Source: Eledone cirrhosa (taxonomy: Eukaryota). Taken from it: DNA of 64,000 nucleotides. Positions 1-56,377 of this stretch are shown one piece after another. The position numbers and the translations under genes are program-made. The number at the start of each line of letters is the position of its first letter. Positions within the stretch are counted from its first letter, which is position 1. The stretch spans positions 213,590,001 through 213,654,000 of the forward strand of contig OZ024742.1 in assembly GCA_964016885.1 (NCBI GenBank). Direction: 5' to 3'. The notes beneath the pieces were generated by a model, which saw only the letters and a list, made by a program, of their open reading frames with translations, did no database searches and had not been told where the DNA came from.

Positions 1-1310
1 TTATTTCTTTTTTTACTTCAAGCATTTATACTTTGATCATTTGATTACTTTCTGTTTGAATAACATCTGTTTTCTTCATGTATAAGCTGTAGTTTTTTTG
101 TATCCACCTTTCAGTTATATATTCCCATTCATATTTGACATTACCATCTTTGTCTTTGATAATATCATTTCTTTGTTGAATCTTGTTAACTTCATTGCTT
201 CGAAAAGATATTTAATAGTGTTTATTATTATCATATTTGATGTTTCCCAGCTTGTCTTTTTTCATCAAGTTTGAATTTCTTGGCTTAGCTGTTGATATCA
301 TTCTTTAGATTCGAATGATGCCATGCTGGTTTTTGCAAATCATTTTTCAGTTTTATTCAATGAGTGGTCTGTTATCCACTTCAATGTTTTTTTTTTCTTT
401 TTGTTTCCTTTGGTAATATTTTCTATGCTACTTCCAAAATCACATATTTAGCTTAATGCCAGTTTCTTTTAGGTTTTTATTTTAGTAGCGTTTTTTCATA
501 TCACCAAAATTGTTCAAAACTTTTTAAAACTTCAACATTATTTTCATTTAGAAAGTTTTCAAGACAATACCATCTTGGTGTAGTAATCTTTTTATTGCTA
601 TTAAGATGCAATTTAATAATTGAAACAATAAGCTGCTGGCAGACTTGGATATGTTCTAACATTCTCTTTTTATTTTTCCATTGCTGTTGAACATTTAAAT
701 GAGTGAAATTGGTTACAAATCTTGTGATCAGGATAAATCAAAGTGCAATATTGTCTATGATGTCGGTTAAACCATGCATTAAAAACTCAGAGTTTGTTTG
801 ATTCAAAAATTCAATTAAACTGTCTCCTTGATAATTCCGTATGCCTAAACTGAAATTACCCACAGCTGCTGATTTTGTTGTTAATTTTCCTACCTTAACA
901 TTTGCATCTCGGATCAAAAGTAAAGCATCTTTAGAGGGTGATTGATCGATTTCTTCTTGAAGTGCATCATAGAATCGATCTAATTCATCTTAATGCGCGA
1001 CTGTTGTTGGAACATAAAACCGTTTGACAGTAACGATAAACGGTTTACCTGTAAATCTGATCTTTATAATTCGATCATTAACTTGTTTTTATCCAAACAA
1101 GGGCTTAGTGGCAGTTATATTCAACACTAACCTTATAGCTATAACACTTCTCACTTTCTGGGAAGATTAACATTATATCATTGTCTGTTGTAAAATAGCC
1201 ATTTACAGTCTATTTAATTACTGAAAGTTATTCTGTGTTCATTTCATTGCATACTAGTTGTAGTTTTTCAACTTGACATAAACATTTTTCATTCAATGTG
1301 CCAATTTTCA
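1..1310 (-). mobile_element. Highly decayed non-LTR retrotransposon fragment (APE endonuclease region, probably RTE-like)
   Basis: Minus-strand remnants resembling APE motifs (MKIGTLN near 1310, NAKV near 900, PDHKI near 730); many stops and frameshifts. Confidence 0.45.
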
Positions 1311-1826
1311 TGTTTGACGAACATTAGTACTGAAATCTTAATCGACATCAGCAACAAAATTATCAATGCTTTTTGTTTTTTATGTATTTTATTTTTCTAG
1401 CTTCACTATAAGCAACAACTTCATTCTGTATTTCTCGATTTCTAGTGCATCCACTTTAGTAGTTTAATAGGAGCTGGGGCACAGCCAGTGTTTCTAATCT
1501 TACAATACCGCATGGTATTTTTCAAAGATATTTTATCATTCAAGTTTTCTATAAAACACAACGGTGGTTAGTGCCCGCTGTTATCTTATAAATCTAGGAT
1601 TTATGCTGTTTGACATTTAGAGAATTATTGCTACTGCCCTGTAGTGTTTACACTGTGGTAATTATATTTTCAATTGCCATTCTGTTAGATGACTTGTTAT
1701 ATAAGTCTAATGAGAATACTCTTCACTGAAATGGATTTCGGACATGAATCCCATGCCTAGATATATTTGTCTATTGTTAGTTGGTAATCTTGTGATATTC
1801 CGAGTCTATCCAAATTCTTGAGGGTC

Positions 1827-3480
<1,654 letters not shown>

Positions 3481-6540: not shown

Positions 6541-8813
6541 GGAGAAAAACATATATATTGTCTCACAGAGAGATGTTAAAAATGCGTTGGAAGATAATAG
6601 ATAATTTAAAAGAATTTGAAAGTAAAAGTTAATGAGGTTTATGCATGAAGAGAAAAAGGGATTAAGAATAATATTAAATTAAGGTTTGTATATTGAAGGG
6701 TTTAATAATATGTACGAGGAAAAGAAATTATTAATATGTATTATTAAAATAAAAATATTAATGTTATTAGGGATATAATGAGAAAAGAAGTAAAAGAATG
6801 AATGATTTATGAATTAGAGGAATTGGTTAGTGTTTAAGTTTGTTTTTATGTAATGTAATATGTGTGCGTAATATATGTACGTAAATAGTTTGTTTAAAAA
6901 TGAGCGCAGAAAGCAAAGAAGAAAATAATGTTTAAGAAAGAAAATATCTAACATCAAAAAATATATATGTTTACGAAATATTTTCTAATGGTAATAATAT
7001 AATATATAAAAAGAAATTAGTTAGGGTTTAAGTTTGTTTTTATTGTGTTTATGTATTGTATATGTAAAAGTCAAACGAGCGTGAAAGGAAGAGATAAGGA
7101 ATTTAAGGAAGAAAAATCTAACGTCAAAAAATATGTTTATGTTTACGAAGGACTATTAAAGGTAATACTATAATGTATTTAAAAACAAAAATTTTTTTAT
7201 GGCCAATGATATGAAGAAAGATGGAAGAATGGATAATGTTGTGGTGAGTAATAATAAGAATTGAGAAGTAGTTAGGAAGAAAAAGTACAGATTAGAGGTT
7301 AGAAATTAGAAAGAAAAGTAGATAAAGAGGAATGATATAGAATGAGTAACTTGTATTATATAATATATAATAAATAATATTGAAATAAGGTAGAAAGATG
7401 GGTATATTTTTAAAAGATATATAAGCCTTTGAGAAAAAGGATTTTAAACTAGTAAGGTATTAGATATTAGCTGTATACTTTATGGAATATTCTGTGGAAT
7501 TTATGCAAGCAGAGAGAAAATAAATCAGTGCGTCTATTTATTATAGAATTGAAATTAGATGTAATGGTGAATTTTTCAGATAGGCAAAATGTTCTGGATA
7601 GGGAGGCATTCAAGTAGAGAGGGGCAGAACAAACTTTTCTCCAAGAGATGTTATAGTTAATATTTTTGTCTTTCAAGGACCATATGAGTTCTGAGAGTGC
7701 CGTGTTAGTTCTTTTAAGTTGGTATTTAGTATAAGACGAATTGTGATTATAAAATCTAGCTTTGAAGGAGGTGGAAGTGGAACCGAAATAGGTAAAGGAA
7801 TTGGTATCAGTTATAACCCTACATTCATAGACTAAGTTTTTATCAAGACAATGGTTATTGAGAGAGCATTTAGTTCTAGCAGGGCAATTATAATTGCGAT
7901 TAGAGAAATTAACAGAGTTATTAACAAGTGACCTAGTGTTATTTATAGGAGGAATTGGATTGGAGAAGTTATTTACGATAGGAATAATAGTTTCCTGATT
8001 TAGATTGGTATTATGAACATTCAACGAAGTTACGTTTGACGTCGTATTTGAGTTTGCAGAATCTAGCCTAGAGTTAACAATGACGTCGGGAGTACTACTG
8101 CTATTATTATGACGCTCAGTGTTGGAAGGATGTGATTTAATATTTAATATTTTATTGTTGTGTTTAGAGATAATGTTAGAGATGTTGGAGGAGGTGGAAT
8201 AGGAAAATGTTATTGTATGTTTGTTAAAGATTTTACTATAGATATGTGAGGGAGGGAAACATTTATCTAAGGCCCTAAAGAATAGTTTAGGAATATTATT
8301 ATTAATAGAAATAGAGAAAGGAACATTATACCAGATTATATTTTTGTATTCAGGTCTTTTATTTAAGTTATTGGAATGATAATAATTAATTATTTTAATG
8401 TAAGATCTTCTAGGATTGGTTTCTTTACTGTATTTAATTTTATCAGGATAACCGGCTTTAGAAAGCGCATTATTATAGTAATTGGCGTTAACATCAAAGA
8501 TATATTTTTTTATTAGAGGATAGGTTTGATATTCTTTTTCCAATATTACTGACTATGGCATTTTTAATGTTAGTGGGGTGGTTAAATTTAAAATTAAAAT
8601 AATTTAGATTCTCATTGTTTTATGGTAAGGGTAATATAGGCCAGTGTCAAGATTAAGGGATATATCAAAGAAGTTAGCTAGTTTGACGTTGTTATCAAAT
8701 TCTATTTTAAGGTTATGTTGTTTAAAGAGATCACGTATATTGTTCTTAATAATATTAAAGTTAACTAAATTGCAATTTAAGATAGTAAACAGTCCATCGT
8801 CACCATAAATTCC
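6541..8813 (-). mobile_element. PLE family A copy: RT C-terminus/thumb plus GIY-YIG plus 3' UTR
   Basis: GGIYGDDGL motif near 8790-8815, FFDISLNL, then ORF 7467-8543; 3' UTR homologous to 3725-4470. Confidence 0.88.
7467..8543 (-). pseudogene. PLE ORF remnant with GIY-YIG endonuclease
   Basis: NCPARTKCSLNNHCLDKNLVYECRV..YFGSTSTSFKARFYNHNSSY..TALSELIW..CLSEK..INRRTDLFSLCLH; frameshifted from the upstream RT. Confidence 0.85.
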
Positions 8814-8826
8814 ACCGCGAAGTTGA

Positions 8827-9326
8827 GGAATTTATCGTGACGGTGGACTTTTTACTATCTTAAATTGCAATTTAGTTAACCTTAATATTATTAAGAACAA
8901 TATACGTGATCTCTTTAAGCAACATAACCTTAAAATCGAATTTGATAACAACGTCAAACTAGCTAACTTCTTGGATATATCCCTTAATATTGACACTGGC
9001 CTATATTACCCTTACCATAAACACAATGAGAATCTAAATTATGTTAATTTTAAATCTAACCACCTCACTAACATTAAAAATGCTATGGTCAGCAATATTG
9101 GACAAAGAATATCAAACCTATCCTCTAATAAAAAATATCTTTGATGCTAACGCCGATTACTCTAATAATGCGCTTTCTAAAGCCGGTTATTCTGATAAAA
9201 TTAAATACTGTAAAGAAACCAATCCTAGAAGGTCTTACAGCAAAATAATTAATTATGATCATTCCAATAACTTAAGTAAAAGACCTAAATACAAAAATAT
9301 AATCTGGTATAATGCTCCTTTCTCTA
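8827..9326 (+). mobile_element. Inverted duplicate of PLE family A RT segment
   Basis: Reverse complement of about 8315-8813 with scattered substitutions; ends in (TA)n. Confidence 0.9.
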
Positions 9327-9341
9327 TTTATATATATATAT

Positions 9342-9386
<45 letters not shown>

Positions 9387-9392
9387 CACACA

Positions 9393-10949
<1,557 letters not shown>

Positions 10950-11810: not shown

Positions 11811-11936
<126 letters not shown>

Positions 11937-11993
11937 TAAACAAATAATGAATAAAACAATGAAACAGTTCCTTATATTAAACAAAAAAAGTTC

Positions 11994-12140
11994 ATTATTT
12001 AACGATCGTTTCTAGGATATATATGTGTTAGAATTGGCATGCATATTCAACAGATCTATGTACAAAATTATACAAAATTATACAAACTATCAAGATTAAA
12101 TATACATACCAAACACACATATATGCCGTCTTCAGAAATA
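11994..12140 (-). ncRNA. Type I hammerhead ribozyme, mirror copy in left palindrome arm
   Basis: Reverse complement of 12148-12294. Confidence 0.75.
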
Positions 12141-12145
12141 TTATT

Positions 12146-12294
12146 ATTATTTCTGAAGACGGCATATATGTGTGTTTGGTATGTATATTTAATCTTGATA
12201 GTTTGTATAATTTTGTATAATTTTGTACATAGATCTGTTGAATATGCATGCCAATTCTAACACATATATATCCTAGAAACGATCGTTAAATAAT
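12146..12294 (+). ncRNA. Type I hammerhead ribozyme with ~115-nt stem II
   Basis: ATTATTT-CTGAAGA-CGGCATATATGTGT...ACACATATATATCCTA-GAAA-CGATCG-TT^-AAATAAT. Confidence 0.78.
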
Positions 12295-12491
12295 GAACTT
12301 TTTTTGTTTAATATAAGGAACTGTTTCATTGTTTTATTCATTATTTGTTTAATATTTTATCTTGACTCTGTATTCCGTTTATCTTTCACCGAAAGTGATT
12401 TTTCATTACATCTCTTCTTTCCATGATATCCGGAATACATTGAGTTCTTCATACGGATTGGACACTACCGTAAACTCTTGGTAGATTTATC

Positions 12492-21171: not shown

Positions 21172-21426
21172 AATAATGATTTCTTTATTAACCACAAGGG
21201 TTTACATAAAGTAGACATTAAGGACAGTGCAGGACAATGCAGGACGGTACAAATGGGCATTTCTGCGTGTAAAAAACAAAAACAGAGGATGTAACAAAAA
21301 TAACAATGAAAAATTCCCCAATAGGGGGGAGACTTCGGAGGGACATTTGTGGAGAAAGCCCAGTAAAAAGCCACAATGACCCTGACCACCAAGGCAAGTG
21401 CCCTCTCCCAGTTTTCCACCTTTAAT

Positions 21427-24400
21427 TTACAGATATATACTCAGAGTAGGCCCATTCACTCGGGCCATTCTTGCTTCTCTCACCCATCTTTCAACAAAAT
21501 GCTGGGAAGAGAGCACTTCCCTCTCTACTCTGATTTTCCTTTTCAAATGAAATTTGAAAAAGTCAATCAGAGCATCACCGAAGAGGTAAGTGCTCGTCTT
21601 CAGCCCTTTCAAACGTGTCCACCATACTATCTCTTTCGCCATGGCCACCAGGCAGATAAAAACTGCCTGCCCTTCCCGGCTAAAGGAGGAGGGCGGGGCA
21701 ATCCTCACGATGGACTCAGATGATAGCCGGATCCGTCCTAAACGCGACAGCAGGTGTTCGACATAAACCCACAAGTCAGCAATTTTCGGACACTGGACGA
21801 GTGCGTGCAGGACGGTTTCGTCGCCCTGCGCGCATCTCGGACATGTCCGGCTGACGGCACCTCCATGCCTGTAGAGTTTATCCCGAACTGGCAAGGCTCC
21901 TCGGTAGCACTGCCAGGCCAGAGATTTCTGGAAGTTGTCCATAGGCCCTGGCCCGAAAGTTCTTCCGAAGAGATTGGCTAGTTGATTTTCGTCGACGCCT
22001 AGAGTTTCCCCAAGTACGTCGTCGCTCTTCCCCTCCACTAATCCTCTATAGAACGCCGAGGTGGAGTTTCCACCGATCACATTGCCCGATTGGTCGAGGG
22101 CTGTGAGCGCCTGAAGACATTCCAGTCTCCAGGCGCTCCCTCTCGGTCTTCGCTTGACCCAGGACTGCAGCTCCGTCAAGGAAACGAGCTGGGGAAACAC
22201 GCGTCTAGCAAACGGCGACCACACCTGATCACCGTCGAGGAAGAGGTGGAGATGTCGTAGCCTGAGCGCGTGCCTGCGCATCATCAGCCACGGCATGCCC
22301 AGCCCTCCACGTAGCGGGTGTTGACAACAGATGGACCGCCTGACCATCGGAGCGCGTCCCTTCCACAAAAAGCGAAAGAGCAAACGCTCCAGCACAGTCA
22401 GGCGAGGCTTAGGACAAGGTACGACGGTCAGGCGGTAGCAGATGACGGACGCGATGTACGCGTTAGCCACCTCCGCTCGACCTTTCAGGGATAGCTTCCT
22501 CTCGGCCCATTTCTGGGTGAGAGAAGCCACCCTGCTCGTCACCTCGTCCCAGTTTTTGTCCGTCTGGAGGTCCGGACCGAACCAGACCCCTAGCAATTTA
22601 ACCGGTCCGTCCGTCCAGCGTCCGACGACGCTGTTGGACGGCATGGACCTGCCTCTCCAGGTGCCGAGCTGCAGGCCCACTGACTTTTCCTGGTTGATCA
22701 TTGCTCCTGTCACCGCTTCGTATTCTCTTAGTGTAGTGCCGATCGCCTCGATGTGTTTGGCGTTCGACACCACTACGGTGACATCGTCCGCATATGCTGA
22801 CACGGATCTTCCGCATCCTAGTTCGCGCGGGACCCCCCTCAACGTCTCCAGTTTGTGCAGTAATGGCTCGAGAGTCAATACGTACAAGAGGGACGAGAGG
22901 GGACATCCTTGGCGGACCGAGCGCATGATGTTGAACGGTTCCGACAGGTGACCGTTCACTCTCACCACAGAGCAGATGTCGCTGTGCATGGCAGCGATCC
23001 AGCCTCTGAAGACGGGCCCAAAGCCAGCCGCCCTCAGGACTGCCGCTAGGTAACGATGGTCGACCCTATCGAAAGCTTTCGACTGATCTAAATTGATCAA
23101 GGACCCACCCGTGCCAGGTTCCCTAGCTACCCTCTCTACGATGTATCGCATGAGGTGGAGGTTGTCGTGGATGGATCTGTCGGGAATGGCGCATGTCTGC
23201 GCCTCTCCCACCAGACCACCAACGACAAGCGCCAACCTCTTTGCTAGCACCTTGGCCAAAATCTTAAACTCTGTGTTTAGCAGAGTTATGGGCCGGAAAT
23301 TTTCTATGTTATCCCGCTTGTTCGGATCCTTTCTCAGCAGTGCCACCGCTCCTCGGCTCACAGAACTGGGAATTCTCCCGTTCTGTTGCCAGTTGCAGTA
23401 GACGTCCGCCAAGAGGCCTCCGAACAAGTCTGGCATCTGTACGTAAAGTTCATAGGGCAGACCATCCAAACCAGGCGATTTACCCCTTGTGCAGCCAGTC
23501 ATTGCCTCCCGTACTTCAGCGGCTGTTATCGGCTTTTCGCAACACTTCGCCTCAGTGGCCGAGAGCCGCGGCAGTCCGTCGAGGTAGACACTAAAGTCCA
23601 TCCCTCTACCCGGCCCCCCGCTGCCCCCGAACAGCTGAGTGAAGTGTCGCTGAAAAGCTTCACACATTTGCCCGGGATCGAGTAGCATGCGCCCGTCGTG
23701 GTCCACCAAAGACCGGATCGTGGCTTTGTTGCCACGACGCGCCCATTGAACGGCTTTCGTCCCCTCGTGTATGAGAGCACGCACCCTTGCTCTGACAACG
23801 CAGCCTTCGTGCTTTGCATTGAAGAATTGGTCAAGGGCCAATTTCGCCGCAAGCATGTCGGTCGCAATGCCTTGGCTAAGCGCCTCGTCTAATTTTCTAA
23901 CTAGTTCTCCCTCTGCTCTATTTTTCTCTATTGCTAAAGCCTTACTAAACGTAATCGATTCTATTCTAATCGCTCTTTTCAGAGCAAACCACCACTTGTT
24001 GTTGACGATGGCCTCCGTCAACGCCCGCTAACTAGTTCGCTAATCCGGTCTCTGTAGGCCTTGCGCGCTGGTAAGGACGCGTTTAGCTTCCAGTAGCCGG
24101 GTCCTCGTCTATGAAGCCTATCTAAGTCAAGCACACAGATCACGAATTTGTGGTCCGTGTAGCTGACTATCTTGAATTGTGGACAGCCTATGCTAGACCT
24201 ATCTATTTCCCTACAAAATACTCTATCTAGATATGATCTGGATGACCCTATGCGATTTGTCCAAGTCCACATTGGCACATTCGGGAAATCCAATCGGTAC
24301 CTGTCAGACAGTTCAAAACGCCTGAGCAGGTTGGTGAGGCTCTTGCACCATCCACCCCTATCCGCTAATCCCACACAGTCCCAGCGTGCATCTAAGATCC

Positions 24401-24830
24401 CGTTCCAGTCGCCCACTAACACTAAAGAGCGGGATGTTCCAAGAAAGGTCTCCAGACGCCGGAAGAAATCAGGCCGCCCTGCTCCTGTCGGGGATTAGAC
24501 GGCCACTAGCCTGAAAGCTTGCCCGTCTCCGCTGGTCACGTCCAGCACCACCAACTTACCCTCTGGGTCCAGGAAGATGGCCCGTATGGCGAGATCCAAA
24601 CCTCTCCGAAAAAGCACAGCAACTCCTCCCCCCGATCCAGGACGGCTGGGAGATGCGTACACAGTGTAGCCGCCGAAGATCGGTGCGAAGGCCCGTGCTT
24701 CGGAGATTCTGGTCTCGCTGATGGCCACTACATCTATGTTTAGTGACCTGAGGTCGTTGAGCAGGTGACCCTGCTTCCATGACGACCCCAAGCCACGCGC
24801 ATTTATGCTGCCTATTCTGAGTGAGGTCAT
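21427..24830 (-). pseudogene. LINE ORF2 (APE endonuclease, reverse transcriptase, C-terminal Cys domain); one stop (24495) and one frameshift (~24020)
   Basis: SINARGL, ISET, GDWN, YLDR, TDHK; KSPGLDG, FRPITLLN, LDQSKAFDRV, RQGCPLS, YADD; CPRC..ETVLHALVQC. Confidence 0.93.
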
Positions 24831-24865
24831 GTTTAAAATAGAGTGGAAAAGATGGGAAAGACCAC

Positions 24866-27041
24866 TTACCGTACTTTTCGTAGAGGAAGGATGGTTTTTA
24901 CATCCCTTTTCACTTGATCGTCTGGTGAAGGGACCGTTGAATCGTCCATTCGGCTGGTCATCGGCTCTTCTATGAGTATGTCCGAATATACTCTTCGGTT
25001 GATAGTTCCTCCTAGGTCTCTGAAATCACCAACTGCGTTGGGGAATTTCGTTTTAATGTTTGTGTATTGTTTCTGTGCTATTTTTAGCAGTCTTATGTTA
25101 GTTGGCGTTTTGATTGGTGCTGGTATTATGTAGTCGTGTTGTGAAATGTCTGTGTGTTCAATTATGTAAGTCATTAGTTTCTTGCTGTGTGTATTTATTG
25201 CCGTGCATTTGTTTTTCTGGGGGTGGTGTGTGGTTCTGCTATTTTCTTGTCGTTTTTGCTGGGTGTGCGTGTTTTGTTGTTGTGTTTGCGATGTTGGTGC
25301 TTGTGGTGGTGGGGTTGAAGGTGTTGTTGTTGTTAGCGGTGGGGTTGTCGCCGGTGGTGATGGTGGTGCTAGTGTGGGTGGTGATGGTGTTGATGGTGTT
25401 GCTGCTGTGAGTCGCTTTGCAGTAGACTTTACCCTTTTTTCATTTCTTTCCTCCCTTTTCAAAGGCGACGATGCGCTGCTTCTGCGTTTGTGCCTTCTTA
25501 CGACCTTTTGCCATCCCTCTCCCACCTCACACTCCATGTCTGATTCTGTGAGGTCGGGGAGGGGTACCAGCTCCACTCTTTCACTTGTTGTTGTTGGTGA
25601 TGTTTGCACTGGAGTCTCTGTTGCAGCTGCATTTGGTATTGCTGTTGTTGTTGTTGTTAATACTTCCACTGCTGCTGCTGTTTTTGATTTCCGTGGCGTG
25701 GGTATGGGTGCCACGGACCTATCGTTCCTGGTTGCCGCTTGTCCTGTTGCTGGTAGCCGTGGAGCCGGTTTCGGAAGGAGGGGGGTTTTCTCCTTTCTCA
25801 GGGTCTTCTCGTTGCAGAAGGCCCTGAGGTGAGTCTTCGATCCACAGCGAAAGCATTTCGGGCGTTTGCCCTCAACACTTATGGGCAGTTGAGTGCCGTT
25901 ATCGAAGTCTATCATATCCGGGATAGCTTCGATGCACTCCTGGTTGGTTTGGATTAACATCTCAATGGAGGTGCCGACCCAATCTTCTCTTACTTTTTTC
26001 TGTATTTGCTGTACAGTTGTTTTGTCCTCGATTCCGACGAGGACAGACGCGGCCAGCCAAGAAGAGGCCATCCCGGGGGGGCAGTTTGACCCTCACAATT
26101 TTTTGCCCGCAGTAGGAGGGCACCAACACCATTTCCTCGCTCCTTAGGGTCACTACGGATTGAGCCTTTGCCTCCTGGGGTGTGGCAAAAAGCACGTCTA
26201 CGGTGGCATATTTCTTGCCTCGGGTGATGTGTGTTTTCCGCTGCCACACAGACCCCAAGGCTTTTTGTATTTGAGCCTCTGTGGCTCTTTCCACCCTACG
26301 GGATTTTGTACTTACTGTACGGTACGTGACCGTACAGTGCTGTTGGGTTTCGAAAAAATTTTCCGCTGCCTTGCAGATTGCTCGGTGTCCAGTTTTTGTC
26401 ACCATCTTCTTCGCTTCCTCTAATTCCTCATTTGTTATGAGGATTGTTTCCAGGTTCTTCGCGATACCTGCAAACGAAATTGGTTTTTCTTTGCTGCTGT
26501 TGTTGTTGTTGTTGTCGTCAGAGCTGCTGTTACTTTTGGTGCTGCTGCAGGTACTACGACTACTGCCGCCGCCGCTGTTGCTGTGGTTGTTGTTGTTGTT
26601 GCTGCTGCTAATGCTGTTGTTGTTTATGCTGCTGCTGATGCTGTTGCGGCTGCTACTGTTGTTTTCATTGTCGCTGTTGCGGCTGCTACTGTTGTTTTCA
26701 TTGTCACTGTTGCTGCTGTTATTACGGCTGCTACTGATATTATTCCTGACGTCAGACGAATGAAATGGGTTTTCGTATTTCCCGCACACCTGTTTCGTCG
26801 TTGTCGTCGTCGTCGTGGAGAAATCTTGCACGCTTTGCACGAGACTTTTCTTTTCTGTCGTCGCTTGCGAAAGAGAAGGGAGGGAGAGAGACACATTTAA
26901 AGAAGGGAGGGAGAGAGACAATCTTCTCTCTGCTGTAGTGACGATTGAGGAAGAAGAAGACGGAATGAGTGGGAGTGACCTATGAAAATTTTTTTCGTAG
27001 CCATGTTGTTTTTTTTTTTGTTTAAAATAAATATTGGGCAC
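24866..27041 (-). pseudogene. LINE ORF1 (gag-like, CCHC zinc knuckle), frameshifted near the G-run at ~26075
   Basis: CFRCGSKTHLRAFC; overlapping ORFs 25962-27041 and 24866-26071; directly upstream of ORF2; true start uncertain. Confidence 0.8.
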
Positions 27042-27373
27042 AAAACCCCAATAAGCAGTTATTTAACCCCGAAGGGCCAAATAACGGGCAGAAAGACCCC
27101 TTTCACGAGGAGGAGGGTGTTTTTGTCTACAAGTTGGTAAAAGTTTTAAACAATTTACAATTGTTATCGCGGTCAAAATTTACAATACCTTACAGAGCCG
27201 AGCCTCCGTCAACCATAGCATTCAATAATAATAATAATAATGGCAATACAAGATTTACTGATTGGTTATTTCTGCTTCAAATAAATACCATATGAAAATA
27301 TCATAAAAAAATAAAAATAAAATTATTTTTCACACAGTCGTGCGCACACACGCACACACATTATATATATCTG

Positions 27374-46983: not shown

Positions 46984-47015
<32 letters not shown>

Positions 47016-47020
<5 letters not shown>

Positions 47021-47394
47021 TAAACGGAAAAGAAAATGCTGACAAATTGTTCCCAGTGAAAAATAGTTTAATTAGGAATAAGTAAAAATTAGTAATAGTA
47101 TTGGTTAGTATTCAGTTTTGGTTGCGCATTTCTAGTGCTTTTCAAAAATAATTTTGAGATAGAGCACCCGTGATTTTTGCTCTAATCAGATCAGAGCAAA
47201 CATCACGGGTGCTCTATCTCAAAATTATTTTTGAAAAGCACTAGAAATGCGCAACCAAAACTGAATACTAACCAATACTATTACTAATTTTTACTTATTC
47301 CTAATTAAACTATTTTTCACTGGGAACAATTTGTCAGCATTTTCTTTTCCGTTTACCAATATATCATAACTCGTGTGTTACACCTCTATTCTTT

Positions 47395-54899: not shown

Positions 54900-55067
54900 A
54901 GCGTCAGGACCCCCGACGGCTGAGCTCCGGCCGTTTCGACAGCTAGATCCGAACTGAGTTCGGGGTCCTGACTCTTTTCCTATTACCTACTCTACTACCC
55001 TAAGTATCGAGTACTCTGGTGCGTTATGGTCCTCCTGGTTCCTTACCACACTTTCTTTGTTACACAC

Positions 55068-55149
<82 letters not shown>

Positions 55150-55324
55150 TATTAACAAATGGAAACTATATTTATAAAACCATATTATATATATATATAT
55201 ATATAATTGGTGTGGGATGGTTAAAGCGTCCGTAAGCGGTAGGCCGTTTGAGCACTCGATGCTCTTACAGAGCAACACTGATTCTCCGTTTCTTATGTGA
55301 TATATATATATATATCTATCTATC

Positions 55325-56143
55325 TAAGGCGGGTAAAATTCCCGAGATCCATGGACGAGTTCTCTCCAGCGGTCTCTGTCCCTCATTATCGCTGCCATAT
55401 CCTGCATCTCCAACAGACCAGTGTCTGTCCTTAGGGCATCAACATATGTTAACCTTGGTCTTCCTCTTCTAGTGTGTCCATATAGGGGCTCCCAAAGGAG
55501 CACTGAGTGCAATGTCAACTCTGGATGTCGGTGAGCATGTCCAGCCAACCTCAGTCTTCTCTGTGTCACTTTTGAGCTGACTTTTGGGATGCTCCCATAC
55601 AGCTCTGAGTTTTTCATCCTCAGTGTATACTGATTAATGTTCAGAGCCATCCTCAGCATTCTCGTGTAGCACCCATCCACCATCTGAGTGAGTCTTTTGG
55701 TCAGTGTCCAAGTCTCAGACCCATACAGCTTTACTGTAGCACCGGCTCAGAGCAGGAGAGTTGGGGCGAAAAAGGTAACGGATGCTGAATTTGCCGACGA
55801 CATAGTTTTGGTGACAAATACAGTGAAGGAGGCAGAGGATTTGATGCGGGAGGTTGAGACTGTGTCGATGAGTGTGGGGCTGAGAATGAATGAGACTAAA
55901 ACAAAATATCTGGTAGAGAATGTTGAGAAGCCAGAGGGGATCACTAATGTAGGCGGGAAGCCGCTGGAATTGGTTGAGGACTTCCTGTATTTGGGAGCAA
56001 AGATTGGGAATACGGAAGATGATGTGGTTGAGAGGAAGAGCAAGGCCTGGGCGGCGTGTCACAGCTTGAGATCGGTGTGGAAGTCGGACCTTCGTAGAGA
56101 CCTGAAAATCCGCCTCTTCATTGCTGTAGTGGAGTCTGTGCTG

Positions 56144-56149
<6 letters not shown>
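55325..56149. mobile_element. RTE LINE fragment with internal inversion
   Basis: Plus 55730-56149: EFADDIVL..FLYLGA..AVVESVLLY. Minus 55729-55325: LYGSETWTLTK..DGCYTRMLR..GRPRLTYVD. Confidence 0.9.
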
Positions 56150-56183
<34 letters not shown>

Positions 56184-56377
56184 CGAAGGAAATGTGGTAA
56201 GGAACCAGATGGACCATAACGCACCAAAGTACTCAATATTTAGGGTAGTAGAGTGGGTAATAGGAACGAGTAGGACCCCGACAGCTGAGCTCAAGCCGTT
56301 TCTACGGCTAATTCTGGACGTCCAGAATTAGCCGTCGAAACGGCTTGAGCTCAGCCGTCGGGGTCCTACTCGTTCCT

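What the first reader, a model, noticed from the sequence alone, without database searches (positions are those of the whole stretch)
55325..56149. Clean twin-priming-like inversion in an RTE element within a TA tract
The plus arm ends ..VLLY (GCTGTAT then ATAT..) and the minus arm begins LYGSETW (GCTGTATGGG), so the ORF is cut at one codon with a 7-nt overlap and both outer ends are anchored in TA-like repeats. The same geometry as in the PLEs, but in an APE-type LINE, suggests that the self-complementary (TA)n target drives two-ended priming regardless of element class.
Basis: partly seen in the sequence, partly recalled or inferred. Interest (0 to 1): 0.72.

Follow-up and report, generated by a model that had tools for sequence, protein, structure and literature searches.

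The report
Inverted jumping-gene copy in TA repeat
This is a broken copy of a common jumping gene whose front part lies back-to-front inside a TA repeat, a shape shared by about a quarter of the family's sampled copies and likely made when both cut DNA ends began copying the same RNA.

Summary
Window 55324-55729 (minus strand) is the last ~405 nt of a 3.3-kb single-ORF APE+RT LINE (RTE-like). Window 55728-56149 (plus strand) is the 422 nt lying just upstream in intact copies. Seven bases (GCTGTAT) occur in both arms, and both outer ends abut (TA)n. Both arms are 99-100% identical to one full-length copy, so they belong to one young subfamily.

It is not a one-off. The 3'-end 27-mer occurs 6458 times in the genome. 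Of 178 sampled copies, 47 (26%) have this architecture, each with different breakpoints. Outer junctions carry TA microhomology: 21 of 30 have at least 2 nt, against 13% expected. They recur at AU/UA sites, and the window's exact junction occurs 31 times genome-wide. Inversion junctions have a median 3-nt microhomology, and 9-11-bp target-site duplications bracket whole inverted structures. This matches L1 twin priming.

Inversions are commoner beside TA: 32% versus 15% by the first rule, and 67% versus 21% where the perfect TA run is at least 20 nt. They also occur at non-TA sites.

The cross-class generalisation was barely tested. My literature searches found no report of twin priming in RTE elements. 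Earlier notes of this scan (e1-9507759, e1-9559861) describe similar architecture elsewhere in this genome.

The parts
55300..55315 (.). (AT)8 flank on the 3' side of the element. It is either a remnant of the target TA tract or a TA extension of the element's tail.
   Evidence: sequence. Ordinary copies are followed by the same (ATAG)0-3(AT)n.
55316..55323 (-). (ATAG)2 microsatellite-like 3' tail of the element. It continues the TAG stop codon as TAG ATAG ATAG.
   Evidence: 2272 of the 6458 copies with the 3'-end 27-mer carry at least two ATAG units.
55324..55729 (-). Forward 3' arm: the last ~405 nt of the LINE (reference 2903-3311), an open frame LYGSETW...REFYPP* with its stop at 55324-55326. 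Likely the first-strand cDNA primed from the bottom-strand nick.
   Evidence: L250: 2903-3311, 99% identity.
55723..55729 (-). Copy 1 of the 7-nt duplicated stretch (ATACAGC on plus = GCTGTAT on minus), reference 2903-2909.
   Evidence: 7-nt overlap in all ordinary copies.
55728..55729 (.). Inversion junction: a 2-nt GC that fits both arms (microhomology).
   Evidence: (query 404-825 and 1-405 overlap by 2).
55728..56149 (+). Inverted 5' arm: reference 2488-2909, the RT part with FADD, ending ..VESVLLY. Likely the second cDNA, primed from the top-strand TA end at the internal ..CUGUAU site.
   Evidence: (RVT_1, DUF6451), (100% identity).
56143..56149 (+). Copy 2 of the 7-nt duplicated stretch GCTGTAT. 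Its last 3 nt (TAT) are also in register with the TA flank, giving a 3-nt microhomology at the outer junction.
   Evidence: The same junction 29-mer occurs 31 times genome-wide.
56150..56182 (.). 33-nt (AT)n flank at the outer end of the inverted arm, presumed to be the top-strand primer side of the target tract.
56183..56377 (-). Context, not part of the LINE: a hairpin-bearing repeat whose end abuts the (AT)n. An inverted relative lies at 54900-55055. Many RTE-like insertions sit in TA tracts that terminate this repeat.
   Evidence: (I1, I2, I5) and the flanks of L041, L051, L071, L086, L091 and L115.

Best explanation
Window 55324-56149 is a 5'-truncated, 5'-inverted copy of a young, (TA)n-seeking, 3.3-kb APE+RT LINE (RTE-like), and it was most likely made in a single integration event by twin priming. 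Shown directly: the two arms are adjacent parts of one element, they overlap by 7 nt, they meet at a 2-nt microhomology, and they are bounded by (TA)n. Inferred steps: (1) the element's endonuclease nicks the bottom strand inside a TA tract, and that TA 3' end pairs with the RNA's UAG(AUAG)n(AU)n tail and primes cDNA 1 from the 3' end up to reference 2903. (2) The top strand is nicked about 9-11 nt away. Its freed TA 3' end pairs with the internal ..CUGUAU (3 nt, UAU) and primes cDNA 2 from reference 2909 back to 2488. (3) After the RNA is removed, the two cDNA 3' ends pair at GC and are filled in and ligated, leaving the 5' piece inverted and 7 nt duplicated. A long TA tract would favour step 2 because it melts easily and its end can pair with any AU/UA run.
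For: Parent structure: 25 of 25 ordinary loci show the arms contiguous with a 7-nt overlap. A full-length copy (L032) is 3311 nt with one ORF carrying Exo_endo_phos_2, RVT_1 and DUF6451, flanked by TA on both sides. Family-wide survey: the 3'-end 27-mer occurs 6458 times and its reversed control 0 times. I took 180 copies in genome order on C1 and dropped 2 as duplicates (L052, L089). Of the remaining 178, 116 are 5'-truncated, 47 inverted (26%, Wilson 95% interval about 20-33%), 13 full-length and 2 head-to-head. Geometry: Z-X-1 lies within +/-30 nt in 31 of 47, comprising 17 duplications (1-44 nt), 3 exact joins and 27 deletions (5-2043 nt). The median inverted arm is 300 nt, and 4 arms reach the element's 5' end. 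Outer-junction microhomology with the TA flank averages 2.2 nt against a simulated 0.65. It is at least 2 nt in 21 of 30 events against 13.4% expected (p=2e-12). In 22 of 30 events X ends in AT or TA, against a background of 10.6%. X sites recur: 13 neighbour pairs within 1 nt against 2.3 expected. The window's own junction 29-mer occurs 31 times; of 30 loci read, 25 show the full structure with different Y (1977-2884) and Z (2892-3144). The inversion-junction microhomology has a median of 3 nt. TSDs bracket whole inverted structures: L046 ATTGCTTAA, L064 ATATATAGTGG, L087 ACATATAC. TA dependence is shown. These figures mirror L1: about 30% inverted and about 70% with 2-5-bp microhomology at the 5' junction (PMC2912911, passages read).
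Against: No TSD can be read for the window's own copy, because both flanks are TA. Twin priming is inferred from end products; no de novo event was observed. The two subsamples differ (33/98 versus 14/80 inverted) for no known reason. The second subsample was stratified by tail type. Only the first TA rule was chosen before the result was seen (p=0.074 on the first 98 copies, p=0.019 on all 178). The stricter rules and the run-length bins were post hoc, and the 0-1-nt bin (15/66 inverted) includes flanks with a mere phase break. Ten of the 47 events have deletions above 100 nt between X and Z, which simple twin priming does not predict. In cell assays, 5' inversions were seen almost only for L1 in human cells (PMC4245944, passages read), so the mechanism is not established for other clades. 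RTE clade membership rests on architecture, not on a tree.
Confidence: 0.85

Rival explanations
1. An ordinary 5'-truncated copy inserted first. Its 5' part was later inverted at the DNA level, for example by recombination or replication-template switching between the self-complementary 5' TA flank and an internal TA-like site.
For: X sites are TA-like, and the flank is a self-complementary repeat that can form cruciforms. This is compatible with TSDs around the whole structure.
Against: Recombination between the flank TA and an internal TA site would carry TA repeat to the inner junction and give an exact reciprocal break. Instead, inner junctions join Y directly to Z with 0-13 nt of non-TA microhomology, and X/Z show duplications up to 44 nt and deletions. 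One breakpoint always coincides with the element's 5' boundary in all 47 of 47 events. The arm identities of inverted and plain truncated copies are equal (97.7 versus 97.9%).
Confidence: 0.05
2. Two independent insertions of the same family landed in opposite orientation in one TA tract and by chance abut.
For: TA tracts are hit repeatedly. Tail-to-tail and head-to-head pairs exist (L077/L078, L047/L048 and L034).
Against: The inverted arm has no 3' end or tail of its own, which TPRT insertions always have. Its outer end matches the inner start of the other arm to within 7 nt here, and within +/-30 nt in 31 of 47 family events. Both arms are 99-100% identical to one reference copy.
Confidence: 0.03
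3. The inverted structure arose once and was then copied, either by segmental duplication or by retrotransposition of an already inverted master. On this view the window holds a secondary copy, not an original event.
For: Four other loci (L002-L005) align across the whole inverted query at 91-96% identity. L038/L052 are a duplicated pair, and L084/L101 share X and Y.
Against: L002-L005 have different outer and inner breakpoints and unrelated flanks. Of the other 29 loci read with the same outer junction, only L244 shares Z with the window, and its Y differs (2278 versus 2488). The apparent clustering of inner junctions came largely from querying with a junction-spanning sequence. In the position-ordered survey Y spans 1-3189, with only modest clustering.
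Confidence: 0.03
4. Assembly artefact: a mis-join inside repeats and TA tracts created the apparent inversion.
For: The locus is flanked by simple repeats and belongs to a family of more than 6000 copies. I could not confirm the locus-specific junction from public contigs.
Against: The same architecture occurs at 47 of 178 sampled loci, with precise microhomology and TSD signatures that a mis-join would not produce.
Confidence: 0.02

Closest known systems
Twin-primed 5'-inverted L1 insertions (Ostertag and Kazazian 2001, paper not held, known from citations only; Kojima 2010, PMC2912911, passages read)
   Same: The 5' piece is inverted and directly upstream of the forward 3' piece in the parent. 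There are small duplications or deletions at the break, microhomology at the 5' junction and at the inversion junction, and TSDs around the whole structure. The frequency is similar: about 30% of human and chimpanzee L1 insertions versus 26% here.
   Different: The element is a 3.3-kb single-ORF APE+RT LINE with a (TAGA)n(TA)n tail instead of poly(A). The target and second primer are a TA microsatellite, internal priming sites are AU/UA hot spots, and the rate rises with TA-run length.
RTE-clade LINEs with microsatellite-like 3' tails (Nishiyama and Ohshima 2018, PMC6007223, passages read)
   Same: Compact single-ORF APE+RT element with almost no 3' UTR and a microsatellite-like tail. TSDs are about 9-11 bp, against the 10-12-bp RTE peak quoted there. 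The paper proposes that tail repeats pair with the target, and its Table 2 lists a (TA)n-tailed RTE (Plat_RTE1).
   Different: In the passages I read, that paper does not describe 5' inversions; it cites the twin-priming paper only in another context. Clade placement of the present family by RT phylogeny was not done.
LINE- and host-dependence of 5' inversion in cell assays (Yamaguchi, Kajikawa and Okada 2014, PMC4245944, passages read)
   Same: Their model says inversion needs an exposed 3' overhang long enough to pair with the LINE RNA before first-strand synthesis ends. A TA tract between the nicks fits that requirement.
   Different: They saw inversions only with L1 in human cells, plus one Nimb-2_DR insert, and none with ZfL2-1. 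Here a non-L1 family shows them in about a quarter of genomic copies.
Penelope-like elements with inverted upstream partial copies (recalled; one PLE-like example in the window at 7467-9436)
   Same: An inverted arm whose outer end stops at an internal position against (TA)n.
   Different: In the window's PLE-like element the two arms cover the same region (a head-to-head palindrome centred near 8820). They are not adjacent regions with a shared breakpoint. The endonuclease class is different (GIY-YIG-like motif seen by eye; no Pfam hit).

Membership tests
Twin-primed 5'-inverted LINE insertion | The inverted segment is the part of the parent lying immediately upstream of the forward 3' segment, and its outer end (X) matches the inner start (Z) of the forward segment. 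| tested here: met
   Window: X=2909, Z=2903, Y=2488. Family: 31 of 47 within +/-30 nt.
Twin-primed 5'-inverted LINE insertion | Microhomology between the target end and the internal RNA site at the outer (5') junction. | tested here: met
   Window: 3 nt (TAT). Family: at least 2 nt in 21 of 30 against 13.4% expected, p=2e-12.
Twin-primed 5'-inverted LINE insertion | Microhomology at the inversion junction between the two cDNAs. | tested here: met
   Window: 2 nt (GC). Family: median 3 nt, range from -98 (filler) to 13. No formal null was computed for this junction.
Twin-primed 5'-inverted LINE insertion | A single target-site duplication brackets the whole inverted-plus-forward structure. | tested here: inconclusive
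   Unreadable for the window, where both flanks are TA. Met at three family loci with mixed flanks: L046 (9 bp), L064 (11 bp) and L087 (8 bp).
Twin-primed 5'-inverted LINE insertion | Formation during retrotransposition, seen as de novo events or filled/empty alleles. | not testable with these tools
   Public contigs collapse the family and do not bridge the junction.
RTE clade of non-LTR retrotransposons | A compact element of about 3.2-3.3 kb with one ORF: N-terminal APE endonuclease plus RT, with no RNase H or gag-like ORF1. | tested here: met
   L032 is 3311 nt with one open frame of 1131 codons. Pfam gives Exo_endo_phos_2, RVT_1 and DUF6451 only. That these features define RTE is recalled knowledge.
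RTE clade of non-LTR retrotransposons | Very short 3' UTR and a microsatellite-like tail instead of poly(A). | tested here: met
   The stop codon TAG is the start of the (TAGA)n(TA)n tail in 24 of 24 copies with a 3' end. Tail types for RTEs are listed in PMC6007223.
RTE clade of non-LTR retrotransposons | TSD length peak of about 10-12 bp. | tested here: inconclusive
   Only a few readable TSDs (8-11 bp for inverted copies, 8-25 bp candidates for others, many TA-confounded).
RTE clade of non-LTR retrotransposons | The RT domain groups with RTE references in a phylogeny. | not tested
   No named reference sequences were available. Homologues at 50-81% identity are unnamed or 'hypothetical', and the atlas clusters carry only Pfam names.

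The most novel reading that the evidence does not exclude
TA microsatellites are a general catalyst of two-ended target-primed reverse transcription. Because the tract melts easily and either 3' end can pair with any AU/UA run or with a UA-type tail, every TPRT element that lands there is pushed toward inverted or palindromic products. This would apply to the RTE-like LINE, to Penelope-like elements and to short non-autonomous elements. It would explain why this genome's TA tracts are lined with inverted LINE copies, head-to-head pairs and perfect foldback palindromes. The roughly 1300-2150 natural events in this one family would then give a sequence-level rule book for internal priming, which cell assays have not supplied outside L1.
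Probability: 0.3. Interest if true: 0.7.

Novelty: new member of a known kind. Interest (0 to 1): 0.5.

Why it matters
Nearly all the twin-priming papers my searches returned concern mammalian L1. Cell assays suggested that 5' inversion depends on both the LINE and the host (PMC4245944). This genome holds a compact non-L1 LINE in which about a quarter of the sampled copies carry the full twin-priming signature. The rate rises to about two-thirds beside long perfect TA runs, and the internal priming sites are predictable (AU/UA). That supports the idea that an exposed, pairable 3' overhang, rather than an L1-specific property, decides whether the second DNA end primes. It also offers a large natural data set for modelling that choice. 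For annotation, a quarter of this family's copies will be split into opposite-strand fragments unless the inversion is recognised.

Tried and rejected
(1) Inner-junction hot spot. One search suggested that all inverted copies share nearly the same inner junction. The position-ordered survey showed Y spread from 1 to 3189, so that impression came mainly from querying with a junction-spanning sequence. Modest clustering remains: 16 neighbour pairs within 5 nt against 8.1 expected, with 9 at 2863-2890. It is absent in the X=2909 set and unexplained.

(2) Read support. Logan contigs of runs X15, X17, X18 and X1 are short and dominated by the family's other copies. Loose ends at 55728/55729 show the ordinary parent continuation, and no listed contig bridges this locus's junction. 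This gives no verdict on the assembly or on insertion polymorphism.

(3) Clade naming. The homologue search and the protein atlas returned unnamed APE+RT proteins, so there is no clade label.

(4) Tail type. (TAGA) versus plain TA tails showed no effect on inversion rate in the first sample: 12/33, 12/36 and 9/29.

(5) Age. Identity to the reference does not differ between inverted and truncated copies.

(6) PLE comparison. No ORF of 130 aa or more in the window had a GIY-YIG Pfam hit. One PLE-like element was recognised by eye only and has a different, palindromic geometry.

(7) Literature. Four searches returned results: 'twin priming' with RTE, with microsatellite and non-LTR, with BovB, and with CR1, non-LTR retrotransposon and inverted. 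None returned a paper reporting twin priming in RTE elements. The library lacks most subscription journals, and the original twin-priming paper is not held.

(8) Earlier notes by place and by sequence returned nothing.

Full report
**1. What is at the coordinates**

The sequence and six-frame ORFs show two open frames facing away from a common point.
- On the minus strand, 55324..55746 reads AGATVK-LYGSETWTLTKRL...RELVHGSREFYPP*.
- On the plus strand, 55688..56200 reads ...KKVTDAEFADDIVLV...IAVVESVLLY and then runs into (AT)n.
- The plus arm has a partial RVT_1 match and a DUF6451 match.
- GCTGTAT sits at 56143-56149, and its reverse complement sits at 55723-55729.
- To the left lie an (ATAG)2 tail (55316-55323) and (AT)8 (55300-55315). 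To the right lie 33 nt of (AT)n (56150-56182).

The element body starts at 55324, the first base of the stop codon on the minus strand. The two arms abut directly at 55728/55729.

**2. The parent element**

A search of the window's own genome (3.0 Gb) and a local BLAST gave 25 ordinary loci. In each, the plus arm is followed by the reverse complement of the minus arm with a 7-nt overlap, and both arms are 97.5-99.8% identical to the window. The arms are thus adjacent parts of one subfamily.

A full-length copy (L032) has these features:
- It is 3311 nt long and flanked by (TA)n on both sides.
- It has one long ORF with Exo_endo_phos_2, RVT_1 and DUF6451.
- Its TAG stop is the first unit of a (TAGA)n(TA)n tail.

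Relatives of about 1000-1050 aa with APE+RT occur at 50-81% identity in records that include a ctenophore, sea urchins and amphioxus, but none is named by clade, and the protein atlas added no name. The architecture is that of the RTE clade, which is recalled knowledge. I did not build a tree, so I call the element RTE-like.

**3. Is it a one-off?**

The first search also returned four loci (L002-L005) that align across the inverted query. Aligned, each lies in TA repeats, but each has different outer and inner breakpoints and unrelated flanks. They are independent events.

To remove the bias of a junction-spanning query, I used the 27-mer at the element's 3' end. It has 6458 exact hits, and its reversed control has 0. 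I fetched copies in genome order on contig C1:
- the first 100 places;
- then 40 new places for each of two tail variants.

Two loci were dropped as duplicates of neighbours: L052 resembles L038, and L089 overlaps L088. Against the L032 reference, the remaining 178 copies divide as follows:

| Class | Copies |
|---|---|
| Plain 5'-truncated | 116 |
| 5'-inverted | 47 |
| Full-length | 13 |
| Head-to-head pairs | 2 |

The inverted fraction is 26% (Wilson interval about 20-33%). The first sample gave 33/98 and the second 14/80. I cannot explain this difference. Tail type does not account for it (12/33, 12/36 and 9/29 in sample 1).

**4. Anatomy of the 47 events**

I use X for the outer end of the inverted arm, Y for its inner end, and Z for the start of the forward arm.
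- Z-X-1 is within +/-30 nt in 31 of 47 events: 17 duplications of 1-44 nt, 3 exact joins and 27 deletions of 5-2043 nt.
- Inverted arms are 33-2331 nt long (median 300), and four reach the element's 5' end.
- In the 30 events whose adjacent flank is a perfect (TA)3 or longer, the junction shares on average 2.2 nt with the TA register, against 0.65 in a simulation over reference 2200-3250.
- In 21 of those 30 the shared stretch is at least 2 nt, against 13.4% expected (p=2e-12). In 22 of 30, X ends in AT or TA, against a background of 10.6%.
- X sites recur: 13 neighbour pairs within 1 nt against 2.3 expected. Examples are CTTCAT|, CAGTAT|, GAGGAT|, GCTGTAT|, GTGATA|, GACAT| and ACATAT|.
- The inversion junction has a median 3-nt overlap.
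- Three inverted copies with mixed flanks show one TSD around the whole structure: L046 ATTGCTTAA, L064 ATATATAGTGG and L087 ACATATAC.

**5. The window's own break is a recurrent site**

The 29-mer across its outer junction occurs 31 times in the genome. The intact site occurs 2160 times. Of 30 loci read:
- all have X=2909;
- 25 show the complete structure, with Y from 1977 to 2884 and Z from 2892 to 3144;
- only L244 (the same place as L060) shares the window's Z=2903, and its Y differs (2278 versus 2488).

The 7-nt overlap is therefore one outcome among many at this site.

**6.

| Rule for a 'TA' 5' flank | TA | Non-TA | Test |
|---|---|---|---|
| TA fraction of 20-nt flank at least 0.6 (chosen first), first 98 copies | 26/65 | 7/33 | p=0.074 |
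| Same rule, all 178 copies | 38/118 (32%) | 9/60 (15%) | OR 2.7, p=0.019 |
| Perfect (TA)4 adjacent (post hoc) | 30/72 | 17/106 | p=0.0002 |
| Same rule, inverted versus truncated copies only | 42% | 18% | p=0.0015 |

By length of the perfect TA run at the boundary (inverted and truncated copies only):

| Perfect TA run | Inverted |
|---|---|
| 0-1 nt | 15/66 |
| 2-7 nt | 2/26 |
| 8-19 nt | 12/44 |
| 20-39 nt | 7/9 |
| 40 nt or more | 11/18 |

That is 18/27 (67%) at 20 nt or more, against 29/136 (21%) below (Mann-Whitney p=0.0007). The 0-1 bin includes flanks with a mere phase break. Copy age, measured as identity to the reference, is the same in both classes (97.7 versus 97.9%). Inversions are thus clearly enriched beside long TA tracts, but TA is not required.

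**7. A control family**

A second LINE lies in the window (21186-27062, minus strand). It has RVT_1, zf-RVT and Exo_endo_phos matches and an (ATT)n tail. Its 3'-end 29-mer has 3518 hits. None of its first 30 copies in genome order has an inverted arm within the last 1.5 kb. Only about 11 of them end inside that span, so the contrast is weak.

**8. Mechanism**

The signatures match point for point those described for L1 twin priming, where about 30% of insertions are inverted and about 70% have 2-5-bp microhomology at the 5' junction, with microhomology also at the inversion junction (PMC2912911, passages read). The matching features are adjacent pieces, X near Z, microhomology at both junctions and one TSD.

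I therefore read the window's copy as a single twin-primed integration:
- cDNA 1 ran from the tail to reference 2903.
- cDNA 2 was primed by the top-strand TA end on ..CUGUAU and ran to reference 2488.
- The two cDNAs joined at GC.

Only the end product is observed. The nicks, the order of events and the roles of duplex melting and pairing are inferred. The model of Yamaguchi et al. (PMC4245944, passages read) holds that inversion needs an exposed overhang able to pair with the RNA. That fits the rise with TA-run length.

**9. Rivals**

- A later DNA-level inversion should leave TA at the inner junction and an exact reciprocal break. It does not.
- Two independent insertions are excluded because the plus arm lacks a 3' end and X is coupled to Z.
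- Copying of one inverted master is excluded by the differing breakpoints.
- An assembly artefact is unlikely given 47 independent loci with precise signatures, but public contigs could not confirm this locus.

**10. Novelty**

Twin priming itself is textbook for L1.
- My four searches that returned results found no report of it in RTE elements.
- The one RTE insertion-signature paper holds the term 'twin priming' once, in its reference list; the passages I read concern tails and TSDs (PMC6007223).
- Cell assays saw 5' inversions almost only with L1 (PMC4245944).
- The library lacks most subscription journals, so absence from print is not shown.
- Two earlier notes of this scan (e1-9507759, e1-9559861) describe similar inverted RTE-related insertions in TA runs elsewhere in this genome. 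They are leads, not independent evidence.

I rate the finding a new member of a known kind, with a useful quantitative twist: TA-run dependence and predictable priming sites. Interest is moderate.

Noticed in passing
window 54900-55055 and 56183-56377: Two inverted copies of an abundant repeat flank the locus. Each has a hairpin (58-nt arms, 97% complementary, at 56262-56377, with a different palindrome centre in the left copy), then about 85 nt ending ..CCTTACCACATTTCCTTCGTT, then a microsatellite: (AC)n on the left and (AT)n on the right. The same repeat end abuts the TA tracts at many RTE-like insertion sites (L041, L051, L071, L086, L091, L115).
   Followed up: partly
window 11928-12360 and 47012-47364: Two long perfect palindromes of non-simple sequence: 216-nt arms at 100% with a 1-nt spacer, and 176-nt arms at 99%. 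Each begins at a (TA)n tract. Pieces of the second recur in flanks of RTE-like copies (L120, L126, L128), so it is a repeat family. They could be products of priming from both TA ends, which is untested.
   Followed up: partly
window 7467-9436: A Penelope-like candidate. The minus-strand ORF of 361 aa has a CCHC-like stretch and a GIY-YIG-like motif (..LVYECRV..TYFGSTS..RFYNH..) seen by eye, with no Pfam hit. A head-to-head partial copy on the plus strand (8827-9436) covers the same region and stops at an internal position against (TA)n. This is a palindromic geometry, not that of the RTE-like copy.
   Followed up: partly
window 21186-27062 (minus strand); G000 C1: A second LINE of about 6 kb (Exo_endo_phos, RVT_1, zf-RVT) with an (ATT)n tail and 3518 exact 3'-end hits. 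On C1 several runs of hits are spaced about 6 kb apart (for example 55423678-55449609 and 57085849-57097971), suggesting head-to-tail tandem arrays.
   Followed up: partly
survey loci L034-L213 (reference position 3148): Plain 5' truncations also have hot spots. Nine of 116 start at reference 3148, a TA-like site (CTATATGG in some copies), with up to 5 nt of TA microhomology. For truncated copies with TA flanks, mean microhomology is 1.5 nt (48 copies).
   Followed up: partly
survey loci, reference 2863-2890: The inner ends (Y) of inverted arms cluster modestly: 9 of 41 survey events fall in this 28-nt stretch, and 16 neighbour pairs lie within 5 nt against 8.1 expected. No such clustering appears in the X=2909 set. 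The cause is unknown, possibly an RT pause site.
   Followed up: partly
G000 C1, 0.37-99 Mb versus 100-209 Mb: The inverted fraction differs between the two subsamples (33/98 versus 14/80), although tail type has no effect within the first sample. This may be regional heterogeneity, an effect of the stricter 35-mer selection, or chance.
   Followed up: no
full-length copies (L040, L061, L066, L119, L125, L174, L201, L213 and others): Most full-length copies read ..TATATATG directly before reference position 1. The G may be the element's true first base or an untemplated (cap-derived) addition.
   Followed up: no
runs X1, X18 and X20 (coded organisms A, H and I) versus X15-X17 (organism G): Contigs 95-99% identical to the RTE-like arms occur in runs labelled with several different organism codes. 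The family, or very close relatives, is therefore not confined to one species label. Protein relatives reach 81% identity in unnamed records.
   Followed up: no
L034 (G000:C1:367950-372176): A head-to-head pair in which both members carry their own 3' end (reference 3043-3311 inverted against 2405-3311), as if both TA ends had primed on RNA tails. Two such cases occur among the 178 copies.
   Followed up: no
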